A stretch of DNA of 64,000 nt from Octopus sinensis (taxonomy: Eukaryota). The position numbers and the translations under genes were made by a program. The DNA lies in contig NC_043009.1 in assembly GCF_006345805.1 (NCBI RefSeq), forward strand, positions 42,842,001 through 42,906,000. Direction: 5' to 3'. The first letter of the stretch is position 1, and every line of letters starts with the position of its first letter. Shown in pieces: positions 16,917 through 53,573 of the stretch. The notes under the pieces are model-generated. The model was not told the origin of the DNA, ran no database searches, and worked only from the letters and a program-made list of their open reading frames with translations.

Positions 16917-17495
16917 CAGGGTACAGTGAATGAATTGTCGTGTAAATTAAGCAAAAATGAAAATAACACTGACATCTCATTTTAACAGCTATATTTACAA
17001 AAATTACATAAAAATATCTTGAAATACTAATGAGTAAATTTATTCAATAAAATCGCCTCTGGCTACAACCCTGGCCTCCAGACAACTTTGGAATCTTCTG
17101 CAGCTCTTTTGGATGGTCTCCTCGTTTAAGTTGCTGAATACTGCCATAATCCTTGCTTTCAGTTCATCTTTGGTGTTACAAGGAGTTTTGTTGGTCTCTC
17201 CCTCAGCTGTACCCAACACATAATAATCAAGAGGGTTGCAGTCTGGGAAGTTAGTTGGCCAGATGTTAGGGGTGATGTGATCACAGAAATTGTCTGACAG
17301 CCATGACTGGGTTCTCCTGCTTGTGTGGCATGGTGCAGAGTCCTGTTGCAAGACATAGGACTCTTCCAGCAGCCACACTCGACCCAGAGCAGCACTACCT
17401 CCTCCAGGCACTTGCTGTTGGCTTCCATGTTGAGTCTGAGGAAGATAAATGGAGGTATAACATTGCTATCACTAGTGATCACTCCAAACACCTTC
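16917..17495 (-). pseudogene. maT-like (DD37D) Tc1/mariner transposase C-terminal relic with terminal repeat
   Basis: YVLQQDSAPCH...WPTNFPDCNPLDYY has 37 residues between the second and third catalytic D. The frameshifted upstream part is VFGVITSDSNVIPPFIF. The element end is TA|CAGGGT at 16917. Confidence 0.85.
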
Positions 17496-17848
17496 GCAAT
17501 CACCATTACACTCATCCAACTCTTTTCAAATACCCTGCACTGTCCTCACATCGACACCCAAGCACTCTGAAATCTTTGTATAAATTAGCAGACAACAAGA
17601 ACGTGCACAAGGAATGTATTAGTTCAATGCTCATTAAAATGAGAGAGATTTTGACATTTCAAGCATAGCTCTTCATTAGAAGGGAGAAAGGGAAAAGTCC
17701 AAAGAAGGAAAAGAAATCACCAACAGCATGCATGTGTAGTTACATTGCTGAAAACTATATTCATATATATATATATATATATATATATTTCGTTTTGGGA
17801 TTTGGTTTGCAAGATTCTTCATTTGAGTTTGTGTGTTGAAGCATATTC

Positions 17849-29814: not shown

Positions 29815-30213
29815 TCTTTTACTCTTTTACTCTTTTACTTGTTTCAGTCATTTGACTGCGGCCATGCTGGAGCCTTTAGTCGAACAAATCGACCCCCGGA
29901 CTTATTCTTTGTAAGCCCAGTACTTATTCTATTGGTCTCTTTTGCCGAACTGCTAAGTGACAGCGACGTAAACACACCAGCATTGGTTGTCAAGCAATGC
30001 TAGGGGGACAAACACAGACACACAAACATATACACACATATATATATATACATATATACGACGGGCTTCTTTCAGTTTCCATCTACCAAATCCACTCACA
30101 AGGTTTTGGTCGGCCCGAAGCTGTAGTAGAAGACACTTGCCGAAGATGCCATGCAGTGGGACTGAACCCGGAACCATGTGGTTGGTCAGCAAGCTAATTA
30201 CCACACAGCCACT
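29815..30213 (-). mobile_element. SINE family A
   Basis: Near-consensus copy. Confidence 0.85.
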
Positions 30214-30961: not shown

Positions 30962-31357
30962 TCTTTTAACTTGTTTCAGTCATCTGACGGCAACCATGCT
31001 GGAGCACCGCCTTTAGTCGAGCAAATCGACCTTGGGACTTATTCTTTGTAAGCCTAGTACTTATTCTATCGGTCTTTTTTGCCAAACCGCTAAGTTACAG
31101 GGACGTAAACACACCAGTTATCAAGCGATGTTGGGGGCACAAACACAGACACACAAACACACATACACATATACATATACATATGCATATATACGATGGG
31201 CTTCTTTCAGTTTCCATCTACCAAATCCACTCACTAAGCTTTAGTCGGCCTGAGGCTATAATAGAAGACACTTGCCCAAGGTGCCATGCAGTGGGACTGA
31301 ACCCAGAACCATGTGGTTGGCAAGCAAGCTACTTACCACACAGCCACTCCTGCACCT
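30961..31357 (-). mobile_element. SINE family A
   Basis: Near-consensus copy. Confidence 0.85.
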
Positions 31358-31439
31358 ACATATATATACACACATACATCCACACATTTATTTATATCTA
31401 TATATACATACAAATATATATATATACATATATATATAC

Positions 31440-31483
<44 letters not shown>

Positions 31484-31604
31484 ACAATCAAGGAACGGCC
31501 ATAATAGGCCATTCACCCACTAGAAATAACAGCCAAAGCTTCAACCGCAAATAAAGATCAATTCCGTAAACAGGAGAAAATTTAAAAAAACATTTACCCT
31601 GTAA

Positions 31605-31710
31605 TTCTTGTACGATGCACCGTTTCGTCTGCTGTTTAATGGTAAACTAACCTGATTAAATTAAATCAAGCCAATCTTCCATAGGCCCTCAAGATTCTTC
31701 AGCAAGAAAT
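31605..31710 (-). ncRNA. Type I hammerhead ribozyme (left arm, inverted copy)
   Basis: Reverse-complement copy of 31773-31879. Core CUGAAGA at 31702-31696, followed by GAAA-CGGUGCAUCG-UA-CAAGAA. One extra U in stem II. Confidence 0.8.
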
Positions 31711-31772
31711 AGCCAAGTCGGGACAGATATTTTCACGAGGCATATCTGTCCCGACTTGGCTATTTCTTGGCT

Positions 31773-31879
31773 ATTTCTTGCTGAAGAATCTGAGGGCCTA
31801 TGGAAGATTGGCTTGATTTAATTTAATCAGGTTAGTTTACCATTAAACAGCAGACGAAACGGTGCATCGTACAAGAAAT
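31773..31879 (+). ncRNA. Type I hammerhead ribozyme (right arm)
   Basis: AUUUCUUG-CUGAAGA-A-UCUG-[~58 nt]-CAGA-C-GAAA-CGGUGCAUCG-UA^CAAGAAAU. 8 bp stem I, quasi-palindromic stem III, GUA cleavage site after 31871, A10.1/C11.1 mismatch at the base of stem II. Confidence 0.85.
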
Positions 31880-32106
31880 TACAGGGTAATTTTTTTTTTT
31901 AAATTTTCTCCTGTTACGGAATTGATCTTATTTGCGGTTGAAGCTTTGGCTGTTATTCTAGTGGGTGAATGGCCTATTATGGCCGTTCCTTGATTGTTGA
32001 TGTTGAACTTAAAAATGGTCTACGACTATTTAATTTTTTCCCACTAGGCCGCTGGTGGCAAAAGGAATTCTACAAAATTTTTTTTCACCACCCTATATTG
32101 ATTAAT

Positions 32107-32151
<45 letters not shown>

Positions 32152-32389: not shown

Positions 32390-34077
32390 CGGTAAAGTTT
32401 ACGAAAATATACAAAAGACGAAGGCAGGTGTATTAGTATAGCGCTCAGAAATAGAGCCTACGCTCTTCGACAGAAAGATACACAGAAAAAAAACAAGGAG
32501 AGAAAAAAAGGAGAGAAAAAAATATATATATATATATAAATTCACATGCATACACACAAGCATCATCATCATTGTTTCATTGTTTTAATGTACAATTTTG
32601 ATGCATGCATCACAGGGAGATTATTTCCAACTGCCTTCCCTGTCACCAACCGTTATCTGTCTACAAGCAAGGTATTATTTCCCACGTAGCTAGATATGTC
32701 TTTGCTGGATATCAAAAATGAATGACATTGATTTACAACAATCTCACAAACACACACACACACATACATGTACATATATATCTATATCACCGGCTTCTTT
32801 TAGTTTCTGTCTGCCAAGTAAATTCACAAGACTTTTGATGCCCAGAACTATATTAGAAGCCCAAGATACTATGCTGGGATTGAACACAAAGTCATGTAGT
32901 TGGAAAGCAAATTCCTAAACCACACAGCCACACTTCCATAAGAGTATGTGTGCGTGTGTGTGTGTGTATGTGTGTGTGTGTGTGTGTGTGAAGAACCATC
33001 AAGCCAAGTAAAATCGTAGTCATAGCAGATACTGGTGGCACGCAAATGGCACCTATGCTGGTGGCATGAAAAAGCACTCATTACTCTCTTGGAATGGTTG
33101 GCGTTAGGAAGGGCATCCAGCTGTAGAAAACTATGCCAAATAAGACTGGAGTCTGGTGCAGTCTTCCAGCTTACCAGCCATGGTCAAACCGTCCAACCCA
33201 TGCCAGCGAAGACAACAGATGTTAAATGACTATGATGATGATGATGATATATATAAACTTGTATGGCTATGTGGTAAGAAGTTTGTTTCCCAACCACAGG
33301 GTTCTGGGTTCAGTCCTACTACATGGCACCTTGGGCAAATGTCTTCTACTATAGCCTCAGATCAACCTTGTGAGTAGAATAAGTACTAGTCTTACAAAGA
33401 ATAAGTCCTGGGTCGATTTGTTCGACTAAAGCAGTGCTCCAGCATGGCTGCAGTCAAAAAAAATGAAACAAATAAAGAATAAAAAGAATATATGTGTATA
33501 TATATAATAATATATATTATATATATATACACACACATATATATATATATTCACACACACACAACATATATATATATATTATATATAATATATATATATA
33601 TATTATATATATATATATATATATATTATATATGTATATGTATATACACACATATATTACTTTATATTTATATATATATATATGCACACACATACATATA
33701 TATTTTTATATTGATATATGTGTGTGTGTGTGCATGTGTGTGTGTACTTAAATATCAGTTTTACATCTATAATCTGATGCAAATAAAAAACACAAGCATT
33801 TAACGAAGTGAGTACATGTTAACTGAGTATTGTAAAAAAAGAAAGAGAAAAAACATTCCAAAACTACAAAAAAAAACCCAACAAAAACACAAACAAATAC
33901 AAAAACATTCCCAGTTGTTTTTAATTTAATTATTTAGAATATAGATACCATAGCTAAGAACTATAAATGAGTTTCTATTCATTTTCATTATCAGGAATCT
34001 AATTAATGCTGAGAATACACCAACACCACTACCAATATTAAGAAGACCGATAATAATAATAATAATAATAATAATAA

Positions 34078-39999: not shown

Positions 40000-40577
40000 G
40001 GAGGGAGAGAGAGAGAAAAAAAAAGAAAGAGGATGAAATCAGAAAATGAGAGATGCAGGTACATACATATATGTACAGATGTATATGTATATATGTATAT
40101 ACATGTATATATCCACATATCAACACATACACATATACGCAAATGGAGAGAGAGGGAGAGAGAGAAAGGAAGAGAGAGGATGAAATCAGAAAATGAGAGA
40201 CGCAGGTACATACATATATGTATGTATGTATATGTATATATGTATATACATGTATATATGCACATATGAACACATGCACATATACGCAAATGGAGAGAGA
40301 GAGAGAGAGAAAGGAAGAGAGAGGATGAAATCAGAAAATGAGAGATGCAGGTACATACATATATGTATGTATGTATATGTATATATGTATATACATGTAT
40401 ATATGCACATATGAACACATGCACATATACGCAAATGGAGAGAGAGAGAGAGAGAAAGGAAGAGAGAGGATGAAATCAGAAAATGAGAGACGCAGGTACA
40501 TACATATATGTATGTATGTATATGTATATATGTATATACATGTATATACTCACATATGCACACATGCACATATACGC

Positions 40578-40615
<38 letters not shown>

Positions 40616-43872: not shown

Positions 43873-44802
43873 TTAGGCTGTTCGGAAAAATTCTGCCCAA
43901 TTTTTGAAAATATTTTTTCAAATTCAATTTAAGATGTTACTTTTTAAGTGTTTTAGACAAAATTTTACATGCTTTATAATTGATGTATACTCATTAATAA
44001 ATTTCTTTATTGATTTCTTTCAGAATATAATTTTGAAGTGTAGAAATCCTTAATTTCAAACATAAAAGAAGAAATGCATTTACTTTTTTTACGTGAATTC
44101 AAGCTTGGACATAATGTGTTCCAAACAGCCACTAATATCAACAGAGCATGGGGTAACAGAACCACTAGTGATTGAACGGTATGATTGGATGGCGAGCTGG
44201 CAGAAACATTAGCACACCGGGTGAAATACATAGCCGTATTTTGTCTGCCATTACGTTCTGAGTTCAAATTCTGCCGAGGTCGACTTTGCCTTTCATCCTT
44301 TCGGGGTCGATAAATTAAGTACCAGTTACGCACTGGGGTCGATGTAATCGACTTAATCCATTTGTCTGTCCTCGTTTGTCCCCTCTGTGTTTAGCCCCTT
44401 GTGGGTAGTAAAGAAATAGGTATGAGAGTGGTTTGAGAGATTCCATAGATAGGATGAGAGCCTTGAAGATCAAGAAGGTAGAGGACATCCATCCACCCTT
44501 GATAATCAGGACTTAAAAACAATACAGCTTTCTGGAACCTAACCAGAGCATTACATCAGAATTTTACTGTTAGCAACTGGAAGAAGTGCATGTTCACTTG
44601 AGCAAAATGAGATCTGTACTTGTTAATCAACAAGGTCCAATTTTGCTCCACAATAATGCTCAACCGCATGTCTCTAGGAAGACACTGCAGAAGCTCACAC
44701 ACTTGGGATACAAGACTTTACCATATCCTCCATATTCTCCTGATCTTTCGCCCAGTGACTACCATTTTTTCAAGCATCTAGACACTTTTTTAAGGCAAAA
44801 AG
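43873..44802 (+). pseudogene. mariner (DD34D) transposase relic, internally deleted and interrupted by a SINE
   Basis: TIR-like ttaggctgttcggaaaa. N-terminal HTH region REFKLGHNVFQTATNINRAWG and WFERF..SLEDQEGRGHP. Catalytic region LLHNNAQPH...PYPPYSPDLSPSDYHFFKHLD. Contains stops and a D-to-N change. Confidence 0.88.
44188..44418 (+). mobile_element. tRNA-derived SINE family B inserted in mariner
   Basis: ggcgagctggcagaa...gagttcaaattc (B-box)...gcctttcatcctttcggggtcgataaattaagtaccag...aaagaaata. TSD ggtatga at 44178-44184 and 44419-44425. Confidence 0.88.
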
Positions 44803-45221
44803 CCCTTCAATTAGTGGTGCTGCAGCATGACCACAGCCAAATGACTCTAGGAAGTAAAAGACAAAAGATGAATGATGCTGGTCATCCTCAAGTGAATCTT
44901 CCAGTGGTGCCGCCAACCGTTTTTTGGTTTTGCTTACATCTTACTAACTCTCACCCACCAATTGTCTTTTCTTCTCAGGTCATCCTTTACATGTCTGTAT
45001 GCATATAGGTGAGTATATGAGATGCTTTTTCCATCAAGGTCCAAGTGCCAACTTCCATAGCACCAACCAGCTGGTGTCATTGGCAGTGACTGACTGATAT
45101 CAAGTTTTCTCACTCAACCTTGGTAACCCCTTAGACAATGCTCATTACCAAAGTAATTGTAAACCAATTAATATGATACTCTCTCACAACCATACACACA
45201 TATTCTTTTCTACTCTATGAA

Positions 45222-51240: not shown

Positions 51241-52026
51241 TACTCAGTGAGAGAACCCTACTGTTGTCCTGAAATTCTGCCACGCCAAACTATGTCAGGT
51301 TATTATATTTGCTTGCAGAGGACTCTTCTCTACTGCTAATCAAGCCATCTAGGTCATGGAGACTATCAATAATTTGTTTAACCCATTTAGAGCCTTGAAA
51401 AGGAATTTATTACTGGTGATCTGATGGTAATTTAATGCTGTATATCTACCATTGGATAAAGTTTGTGTTTATACTTTCAGATTGCTAGCATTCAACTAAA
51501 TCCAGTTGTTAAACCATAGATCAGGTTGGGTGCATCATATGGAATTTCAGTATACTCCTTTATATATATGAGTGTGTATGTATGCATGTATTCAGTGTCT
51601 GTACATATACATGTAAAAGGTAGGTATGTATATAAATAAATATATATGTGTGTGTGTGTGTGTGTATGTGTGTTTGCATATATGTATATGTGTGTGTATA
51701 TATATATGTATGTATATGTATGTATGTATATATATTATATATATATATAATTAATTAATAAGGGTGAGAGAATTAGATACTAATTTAATAGTATATCTAT
51801 TCAACACCAGTGGCTAGTGCTCCGAGAAACCTGGATTATTATATATTTTATAATATATTATATATTTTTACAAAATAAATATAAGAGAGTGGTCACTATA
51901 TGGCTCACTCTAGCACCAGTTAATCCAAAAGGTTTCAACCACAAAAATACATGTTTCCCATGAAAGTCAGTACGATTGTTAGCTCACACGGACAGGGCAA
52001 ATAAAAAATAACAAAAATACAGATTA

Positions 52027-52108
52027 TTTTGGGACAATTGTTTCGCTATTAATGAATTAAATGTAATTTTACTTACAAAAAAATCCACTTGTAGCTCCTC
52101 AGCCAAAA
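52027..52108 (-). ncRNA. Type I hammerhead ribozyme, copy 1
   Basis: Minus strand reads UUUUGG-CUGAGGA-GCUA-[43 nt loop]-UAGC-GAAA-CAAUUG-UC^CCAAAA. Complete core, 6 bp stem I, stem II closed by G10.1-C11.1, palindromic minimal stem III, GUC cleavage triplet (cut between 52033 and 52032). Confidence 0.93.
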
Positions 52109-52561
52109 CTATCTGGATGAAATCCACTCAATCACACGCCAGATTTTACCATAACGAAATACGCGTGTGGTTCAATTGATTACATCCGACGTTATAATTC
52201 AAATGCCCCAACTAACCAGCGCGCCAAACTTTCACGGAAAACAAATACAGCATTTAGAAATAAATGCAGCATAATTATAATTAATTAATAAGGGTGAGAG
52301 AATTAGATACTAATTTAATAGTATATCTATTCAACACCAAGTGGCCTAGTGCTCCGAGAAACCTGGTGGATTATTATAATATTTTATAATATATATTATA
52401 TATTTTTACAAAATAAATATAAGAGAGGGTCACTATATGGCTCACTCTAGCACCAGTTAATCCAAAAGGTTTCAACACAAAAATACATGTTTCCCATGAA
52501 AGTCAGTACGATTGTTAGCTCACACGGACAGGGCAAAATAAAATAACAAAAATACAGATTA

Positions 52562-52643
52562 TTTTGGGACAATTGTTTCGCTATTAATGAATTAAATGTA
52601 ATTTTACTTACAAAAAAATCCACTTGTAGCTCCTCAGCCAAAA
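52562..52643 (-). ncRNA. Type I hammerhead ribozyme, copy 2
   Basis: Same core and stems as copy 1 (+ strand ttttgggacaattgtttcgcta...tagctcctcagccaaaa). Confidence 0.93.
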
Positions 52644-53093
52644 CTATCTGGATGAAATCCACCAATATCACACGCCAGATTTTACCATAACGATAAATAC
52701 GCGTGTGGTTCAATTGATTACATCCGACGTTATAATTCAAATGCCCCAACCAACAGCGCGCCAAACTTTCACGGAAAACAAATACAGCATTTAGAAATAA
52801 ATGCAGCATAATTATAATTAATTAATAAGGGTGAGAGAATTAGATACTAATTTAATAGATATCTATTCAACACCAAGTGGCCTAGTGCTCCGAGAAACCT
52901 GGATTATTATAATTTTATAATATATTATAATATTTTTACAAAATAAATATAAGAGAGTGGTCACTATATGGCTCACTCTAGCACCAGTTAATCCAAAAGG
53001 TTTCAACCACAAAAATACATGTTCCCATGAAAGTCAGTACGATTGTTAGCTCACACGGACAGGGCAAATAAAAAATAACAAAAATACAGATTA

Positions 53094-53177
53094 TTTTGGG
53101 ACAATTGTTTCGCTATTAATGAATTAAATGTAATTTTACTTACAAAAAAAAATCCACTTGTAGCTCCTCAGCCAAAA
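53094..53177 (-). ncRNA. Type I hammerhead ribozyme, copy 3
   Basis: Same core and stems as copy 1; only the A-run in loop II differs in length. Confidence 0.93.
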
Positions 53178-53526
53178 CTATCTGGATGAAATCCACTCAA
53201 TCACACGCCAGATTTTACCATAACGATAAATACGGTGTGGTTCAATTGATTACATCCGACGTTATAATTCAAATGCCCCAACTAACAGCGCGCCGCCAAC
53301 TTTCACGGAAAACAAATACAGCATTTAGAAATAAATGCAGCATAATTATAATTAATTAATAAGGGTGAGAGAATTAGATACTAATTTAATAGTATATCTA
53401 TTCAACACCAAGTGGCCTAGTGCTCCGAGAAACCTGGATTATTATAATATTTTATAATATATTATAATATTTTTACAAAATAAATATAAGAGAGTGGTCA
53501 CTATATGGCTCACTCTAGCACCAGTT

Positions 53527-53573
<47 letters not shown>

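What the first reader, a model, noticed from the sequence alone, without database searches (positions are those of the whole stretch)
31480..32107. 522 bp palindrome carrying two divergent hammerhead ribozymes
Seen in sequence: ~250 bp arms with an 11 nt spacer, and an HHR on each strand (31773-31879 plus, 31605-31710 minus) with 6-8 bp stem I, GUA site and a self-complementary ACGGUGCAUCGU stem III. The sequence is unrelated to the 52 kb array, so it is a second HHR family. The right arm has an extra 11 nt duplication (ttggctatttc) near the centre and a ~105 bp tail, as expected from template switching. Established knowledge: Penelope-like elements often form inverted pLTR structures and carry HHRs. 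Inference: read-through from either strand makes a long dsRNA hairpin that would sequester the ribozyme and could be an ADAR or Dicer substrate; transcripts initiated near the centre would self-cleave.
Basis: partly seen in the sequence, partly recalled or inferred. Interest (0 to 1): 0.8.

Follow-up and report, generated by a model that had tools for sequence, protein, structure and literature searches.

The report
Two-ended ribozyme retrotransposon insertion
This palindrome is one of hundreds of copies of a small ribozyme-carrying jumping element whose inverted insertions almost always end at two different fixed points, one per arm, which likely records two reverse transcriptases copying one RNA from both cut strands of the target DNA.

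Summary
The palindrome and both hammerhead motifs are real. It is not a unique locus. It is a head-to-head insertion of a 493-bp, protein-less hammerhead repeat (a non-LTR retrozyme, Penelope-like) into an (AT)n tract, with at least 930 insertion ends genome-wide. The 11-nt 'spacer' is extra left-arm sequence with a 2-nt microhomology. The 108-nt 'tail' is the fixed distance between two family-wide ends, A and B.

Among inverted copies with both ends at a fixed site, 119 of 120 pair A with B, one pairs A with A, none pairs B with B. Both arms carry the same subfamily alleles, and their inner ends coincide far more often than chance in two samples. Most likely mechanism: two-site twin priming by a Penelope-like RT/endonuclease dimer on one RNA.

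The 52-kb array is a distant relative, not unrelated. Inverted repeats with a one-sided tail are textbook Penelope features; new are the near-strict pairing, the long tail and the evidence against fold-back. Cleavage, expression and the partner element are untested.

The parts
31389..31479 (.). (TA)n target tract, left flank
   Evidence: sequence
31480..31743 (-). A arm: unit positions 468-493 + 1-238; outer (3') end at fixed site A
   Evidence: unit = L007:1501-1993
31605..31710 (-). Type I hammerhead motif, left copy; predicted cut after 31611; weaker fold (constrained-fold probability about 0.01)
31731..31743 (.). Inversion junction: 11 nt present only in the A arm plus 2-nt microhomology AT (31742-31743)
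31742..32109 (+). B arm: unit 481-493 + 1-346; outer (3') end at fixed site B
31755..31780 (+). 11-nt tandem duplication, found only at this locus among the loci then held; likely slippage or a sequencing error
31773..31879 (+). Type I hammerhead motif, right copy; 8-bp stem I, 68-nt stem II with A.C at its base, predicted cut after 31871
31967..31988 (+). Predicted hairpin just 5' of site A (site A = 32001 in this arm)
32002..32109 (+). 108-nt tail = distance between end sites A and B; includes a predicted hairpin at 32054-32092
32110..32144 (.). (TA)n target tract, right flank
51746..53533 (-). Related family-2 array (534-bp unit, 3 hammerheads), no inverted arm, ends at its own B site in (AT)n

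Best explanation
This is a head-to-head insertion of a 493-bp protein-less hammerhead repeat in an (AT)n tract, likely made when a borrowed Penelope-like RT/endonuclease dimer nicked both target strands and primed two cDNAs on one RNA, one from site A and one from site B 108 nt downstream. Shown: family membership, tandem 493-bp units, the AT target, two fixed outer ends paired one of each, variable inner joints with short overlaps or fillers, and matching alleles in both arms. Inferred: each nick primes one arm; the B-primed enzyme follows and displaces the A-primed cDNA; the two cDNA 3' ends are then joined by microhomology (AT here) and filled in, which gives the palindrome with a one-sided tail. 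The two divergent ribozymes are one ribozyme copied twice. The long hairpin is a by-product. The ribozyme's likely role is upstream, processing multimeric transcripts (recalled retrozyme model, PMC7229834; not tested).
For: Pairing rule. Of 98 A-anchored loci: 71 have an inverted arm ending at B, 7 a short B stub, 1 A+A, 2 another end, 14 no inverted arm, 3 unresolved. Of 20 B-anchored loci: 13 end at A, 0 B+B. Of 40 further B-anchored loci: 35 end at A, 1 A stub, 0 B+B. Family 2 follows the rule in 6 of 6 elements with both ends seen; one inverted autonomous Neptune-like copy, L224, does too. Same template. Arms agree at 586 of 597 diagnostic sites, 41% discordance expected. Inner ends lie within 30 nt in 35 of 97 pairs vs 14.8 permuted, replicated at 15 of 35 vs 5.5, and 9 of 35 vs 1.5 within 5 nt. 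B arm = A arm + 108 +/- 30 nt in 19 of 70 (4.2 expected) and 12 of 35 (2.9 expected). Against fold-back: in 29 of 105 elements, and in the window's element, each arm holds at least 8 nt that the other lacks. In vitro support from Poseidon: both strands are cut and extended, two start sites bracket the tail, and a dimer is predicted (PMC11167929).
Against: No autonomous partner was found: no DNA similarity between the unit and 50 GIY-YIG loci. The in vitro study saw no start-site difference between strands, so asymmetric use of the sites is not shown biochemically. One A+A element exists (L140). Most inner ends do not coincide (62 of 97; 20 of 35). With the cluster near the ribozyme and hairpin joins removed, the excess falls to 18 of 79 vs 11.1, p=0.02. 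The direction test (A arm reaches further 5') is only 12 vs 4, p=0.08. Arm similarity could also come from two RNAs of one source locus or from gene conversion. Unit-by-unit variant order matches between arms in L156 but not cleanly in L113 or L161.
Confidence: 0.68

Rival explanations
1. Dual priming: the two nicks prime on two separate RNA molecules of the same subfamily, with an asymmetric complex fixing which site each uses.
For: Explains the A+B rule and arm concordance if one source locus dominates in a cell; arms often differ by whole units and 62 of 97 inner ends do not coincide. Named for L1 in PMC2837659.
Against: Does not predict coincident inner ends without a palindromic word (e.g. 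L162: both arms stop at unit 163 with a 109-nt foreign filler between) nor the +108-nt length relation.
Confidence: 0.15
2. Self-priming or fold-back: one cDNA snaps back and copies itself, and the endonuclease trims the second arm at the other site (self-priming is proposed in PMC3846280; endonuclease resolution of the tail in PMC8557442).
For: Several perfect palindromes centre on short palindromic words (CTAG, AAGCTT, AATT); it explains arm identity directly.
Against: In 29 of 105 elements neither arm contains the other. In the window the A arm has 11 private nt and the B arm 108, so neither can template the other. Most joints are offset by more than 30 nt.
Confidence: 0.1
3. The hairpin is a functional ribozyme-sequestering, ADAR or Dicer substrate selected at this locus.
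For: The whole element folds into one long hairpin; self-evident if transcribed through.
Against: The same architecture recurs at most sampled copies with random centres; no host coding sequence was evident among 77 long frames, mostly simple-repeat translations; no locus-specific conservation was shown.
Confidence: 0.04
4. Fold-back artefact of long-read assembly.
For: Arm differences are mostly single-base indels typical of long-read consensus; the junction was not seen in a listed read piece.
Against: The arms end at two biologically fixed sites inside AT tracts with different outer flanks, repeated at 119 loci; an artefact would mirror the flank.
Confidence: 0.03

Closest known systems
Non-LTR (metazoan) retrozymes (Cervera & de la Pena 2020, PMC7229834, passages; Li et al. 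2026, bioRxiv 10.64898/2026.07.22.740005, parts 1-3 of 5)
   Same: Protein-less tandem units, one type I hammerhead per unit, low GC, highly self-paired monomer (z -4.5), co-occurring with Penelope-like elements.
   Different: The unit (493 bp) exceeds the 150-450 bp range of the 2020 paper but lies within the 51-972 bp range of the 2026 preprint. Stem II is 68 nt. Most sampled insertions are head-to-head arrays with two fixed ends; 'inverted' occurs 0 times in the 2020 main text.
Penelope-like element inverted pLTR with tail (PMC3846280 passages and Discussion; PMC8557442 passages; PMC11167929 parts 1-2 of 4)
   Same: Head-to-head inverted 5'-truncated copy, tail at one end only, AT-rich or microsatellite target, hammerhead in the repeat. 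Opposite-strand hammerhead pairs 100-700 bp apart were already reported (PMC4209133 section 5).
   Different: The tail is 108 nt (about 128 in family 2) vs the published 30-40 bp; there is no ORF; the one-A-one-B pairing is here counted and near-strict.
L1 twin priming / dual priming (PMC2837659, passages)
   Same: A second nick primes a second cDNA; the result is an inversion with a short microhomology or filler at the joint.
   Different: In L1 the second site is a variable internal site and the arms do not overlap. Here both sites are fixed and the arms overlap almost fully, which needs strand displacement or two RNAs.

Membership tests
Type I hammerhead ribozyme | Core CUGANGA / GAAA / NUH with three stems | tested here: met
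   both core motifs intact in 69 of 73 family copies
Type I hammerhead ribozyme | Covariation supporting the stems | tested here: met
   Stem I pair next to the cut is A-U in 17 and G-C in 7 of 24 distinct rows; probably a single evolutionary event
Type I hammerhead ribozyme | Paired base of stem II (10.1-11.1, typically G-C) | tested here: not met
   A.C in both window copies; A-U in 14 of 24 rows. An alternative register with a bulged base was not excluded.
Type I hammerhead ribozyme | Rfam Hammerhead_1 gathering score | tested here: not met
   18.0 and 17.1 bits vs 34; the 45-position model does not cover a 68-nt stem II
Type I hammerhead ribozyme | Self-cleavage | not testable with these tools
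   Indirect only; see the mixed inner-end result
Non-LTR retrozyme | Tandem repeats with a type I hammerhead in each unit, no protein | tested here: met
   493-bp tandems of 10 or more units; 1111 exact hammerhead-start matches. The window copy itself has under one unit per arm.
Non-LTR retrozyme | Expressed as linear or circular RNA | not testable with these tools
   Only contigs were available
Penelope-like element (non-autonomous) | Tandem/inverted structure with one-sided tail | tested here: met
Penelope-like element (non-autonomous) | Sequence homology to the pLTR of an autonomous element | tested here: inconclusive
   None found in 50 loci taken from the 147 matches among 150 scored of 5029 GIY-YIG candidates
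Penelope-like element (autonomous) | RT + GIY-YIG ORF | tested here: not met
   No tblastn hit in the window
Penelope-like element (non-autonomous) | Target-site duplication | tested here: inconclusive
   Hidden by the (AT)n flanks on both sides

The most novel reading that the evidence does not exclude
Penelope-family insertion normally proceeds by obligate two-site twin priming: a dimeric RT engages two fixed start sites on one RNA, one per nicked strand, so the inverted repeat and the one-sided tail are a single signature. The spacing between sites is set by RNA fold rather than length (about 35, 70, 108, 128 and 160 nt in five families of this genome).
Probability: 0.45. Interest if true: 0.65.

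Novelty: new variant of a known kind. Interest (0 to 1): 0.45.

Why it matters
The locus itself is ordinary for its family. The family is useful because how Penelope-like elements make inverted repeats and one-sided tails is stated as unresolved (PMC8557442, passages; PMC11167929). Published explanations are antisense self-priming and endonuclease resolution. Hundreds of young, short copies give a countable record that favours two-site twin priming, and they make sharp predictions for the existing in vitro system. The family also ties animal retrozymes to Penelope machinery by insertion anatomy rather than by co-occurrence.

Tried and rejected
Read validation of the junction: uninformative. 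Four runs were available as contigs only, thousands of family pieces were laid, and no listed piece spans the stretch. No RNA holder was listed on record; this says nothing about expression.

Partner search: BLAST and shuffle-controlled alignment of both units against 50 GIY-YIG loci found no pLTR homology. PLE-protein hits near retrozyme loci (L097, L146, L149, L160, L163, L172, L238, L244) look like neighbours; the three inspected are separated from the repeat by AT tracts.

Cleavage footprint: inner ends piled up just 3' of the predicted cut in the first sample (36 stops at unit 107-136 vs 5 at 77-106; window chosen after seeing the data). The pre-set repeat in the second sample did not hold against the upstream window (10 vs 8, p=0.5; vs whole unit p=0.03). 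Stalling at structure or AT palindromes fits equally well, so this is not used as evidence.

Circle vs linear template: unresolved. Seven rare alleles are in all units of an array and 23 in some; L017 and L161 show period-2 patterns. The T>C variant shared by the window's arms is not private (14 of 355 units). Rfam miRNA and sRNA hits are simple-repeat or hairpin noise. Earlier scan findings: none returned.

Full report
OBSERVATION. The reverse complement of 31480-31730 aligns to 31742-32001 with 245 of 264 columns identical. A window-wide scan finds five hammerhead cores: 31781(+), 31702(-) and three in the 52-kb array. The plus copy folds as a hammerhead by itself. The minus copy has two single-base indels and folds less well (constrained-fold probability 0.19 vs 0.01). 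The full element folds into one hairpin that buries both. Both outer ends abut (TA)n tracts.

FAMILY. The window lies in a 2.72-Gb animal genome, G000. Its repeat landscape looks cephalopod-like to me; this is recalled, not tested. The right arm has 1906 first-look candidates, of which 40 were scored, the full-length ones at 95-98% identity. The loci are tandem arrays of a 493-bp unit; I used the natural copy L007:1501-1993 as ruler. Exact patterns give 465 A ends, 28 and 930 B ends with a strict and a shorter pattern and 1111 hammerhead starts; all are lower bounds, and reversed-pattern controls gave 0. The monomer is a long self-paired rod (z -4.5). The stem I pair beside the cut site covaries, A-U vs G-C. 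The base of stem II is A-U in 14 of 24 distinct rows and unpaired in 10, including both window copies (48 of 73 available copies were aligned with the two window copies).

ANATOMY OF INSERTIONS. Outer ends fall at unit 238 (A) or about 346 (B), directly into (AT)n. I fetched 98 of the first 100 listed A ends; the two skipped, L005 and L103, are also A+B. Result: 71 have an inverted arm ending at B, 7 a short B stub, 1 A+A (L140), 2 another end, 14 no inverted arm, 3 run beyond the fetched stretch. Twenty of the 28 strict B ends: 13 inverted A, 4 none, 1 other, 2 run into gaps. Forty B ends chosen from the first 100 listed because they lacked an exact A partner: 35 inverted A, 1 stub, 1 other, 3 none. 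So 119 A+B, 1 A+A, 0 B+B. In the window, the A arm starts at unit 468 and the B arm at 481, overlapping by AT. I hand-entered this element as 457/468; the correction changes no count. Among 105 joints, 47 overlap by 1-8 nt, 14 are blunt, 37 have fillers and 7 overlap longer, several via internal hairpins (BLAST-edge estimates, good to a few nt).

ONE TEMPLATE OR TWO. Arms of one locus agree at 586 of 597 subfamily-diagnostic sites; 41% discordance is expected for random pairs. Thirty rare alleles are shared by both arms and 209 occur in one arm only, the latter being later mutation or sequencing error. Inner ends lie within 30 nt in 35 of 97 pairs (14.8 permuted, maximum 30). This replicates at 15 of 35 (5.5 permuted). 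The excess shrinks to 18 of 79 vs 11.1 when the cluster near the ribozyme and hairpin joins are removed. The B arm equals the A arm plus 108+/-30 nt in 19 of 70 and 12 of 35 (4.2 and 2.9 expected). Some exact palindromes centre on palindromic words, which two independent cDNAs could also use; others have no such word. In 29 of 105 elements neither arm contains the other, which excludes copying of one cDNA from the other. The A arm reaches further 5' in 12 of 16 informative cases, p=0.08: the direction expected if the B enzyme trails, but not significant.

RELATIVES. The 52-kb array belongs to a 534-bp family with 1010 candidates. It is collinear with this one, shares motifs before the B end, and shows A+B pairing in 6 of 6 elements with both ends seen among 19 examined, with a tail of about 128 nt. 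The genome holds RT+GIY-YIG elements with a CxxCxxC-type linker and C-terminal nuclease, which fits the Neptune/Nematis description in PMC8557442; I built no tree. The commonest family ends in (AT)n at two sites about 35 nt apart, and its inverted copy L224 has one of each. No pLTR homology to the 493-bp unit was found, so the mobilising partner is inferred, not identified.

MECHANISM. Shown: target, two fixed ends, pairing, variable joints, arm concordance. From the literature: a Poseidon protein cuts and extends both strands, starts at two internal sites that bracket the tail, is predicted to dimerise, and does not need ribozyme cleavage for insertion in vitro (PMC11167929, parts 1-2 of 4). 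Inferred: one subunit starts at A and the other at B on the same RNA, and the two cDNA ends are joined at the centre. Whether the template is a circle or a linear multimer is open. Evidence for ribozyme cleavage in vivo is mixed.

COMPARISON AND NOVELTY. Retrozymes as non-autonomous Penelope derivatives, inverted pLTRs with a one-sided 30-40-bp tail and opposite-strand hammerhead pairs are all in print. I did not find twin priming applied to Penelope elements: 3 papers, listing only, titles on telomerase, human TEs and L1; 20 of 38 listed, listing only; 1 paper, whose Discussion proposes antisense self-priming. The library lacks most subscription papers, including the early Penelope reviews, and I read no supplements. 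PMC13282606 (passages) has no mention of hammerheads or ribozymes.

VERDICT. The value lies in the family-wide insertion pattern, which makes an open mechanistic question testable. Interest 0.45.

Noticed in passing
window 51746-53533: Family-2 array: 534-bp units, three hammerheads with G-C at the base of stem II and a CAATTG palindrome in stem III; no inverted arm; distant relative of the family studied.
   Followed up: yes
L141, L146, L149 (left flanks): Short repeated copies of the B end between the AT tract and the main arm, like abortive re-initiation (repeat-addition behaviour).
   Followed up: partly
L070, L126 junctions: 72-94-nt fillers made of a repeated T/A word from unit 128-141; L078 and L162 have 159- and 109-nt foreign fillers.
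   Followed up: partly
L017, L161, L076: Period-2 or period-3 patterns of variants among tandem units; could reflect multimeric circles or later unequal exchange.
   Followed up: partly
L212:6786-7880; L218:7920-8610; L216:7083-7629: Further inverted non-coding elements ending in AT tracts with one-sided extensions (about 160 and 70 nt for the first two, one copy each); L212's carries a hammerhead with a 54-nt stem II.
   Followed up: partly
L211:1674-5374: Abundant young Neptune-like element with a 479-aa upstream frame and a 781-aa RT/GIY-YIG frame in a partial tandem; only a degenerate hammerhead-like motif was seen in its 3' region.
   Followed up: partly
window 30008-30213, 31143-31348, 33264-33367: Copies of a SINE-like dispersed repeat flank the element; the label is recalled, not tested.
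   Followed up: no
window 40000-40612: 145-bp tandem repeat, 4.2 copies, 94% matches.
   Followed up: no
window 17159-17545 and 44574-45008: Frames that read like Tc1/mariner transposase fragments (recalled resemblance).
   Followed up: no
window 31851-31855: Other runs, including other coded organisms, hold the family at high depth, mostly with variants that restore the A-U pair at the base of stem II.
   Followed up: partly
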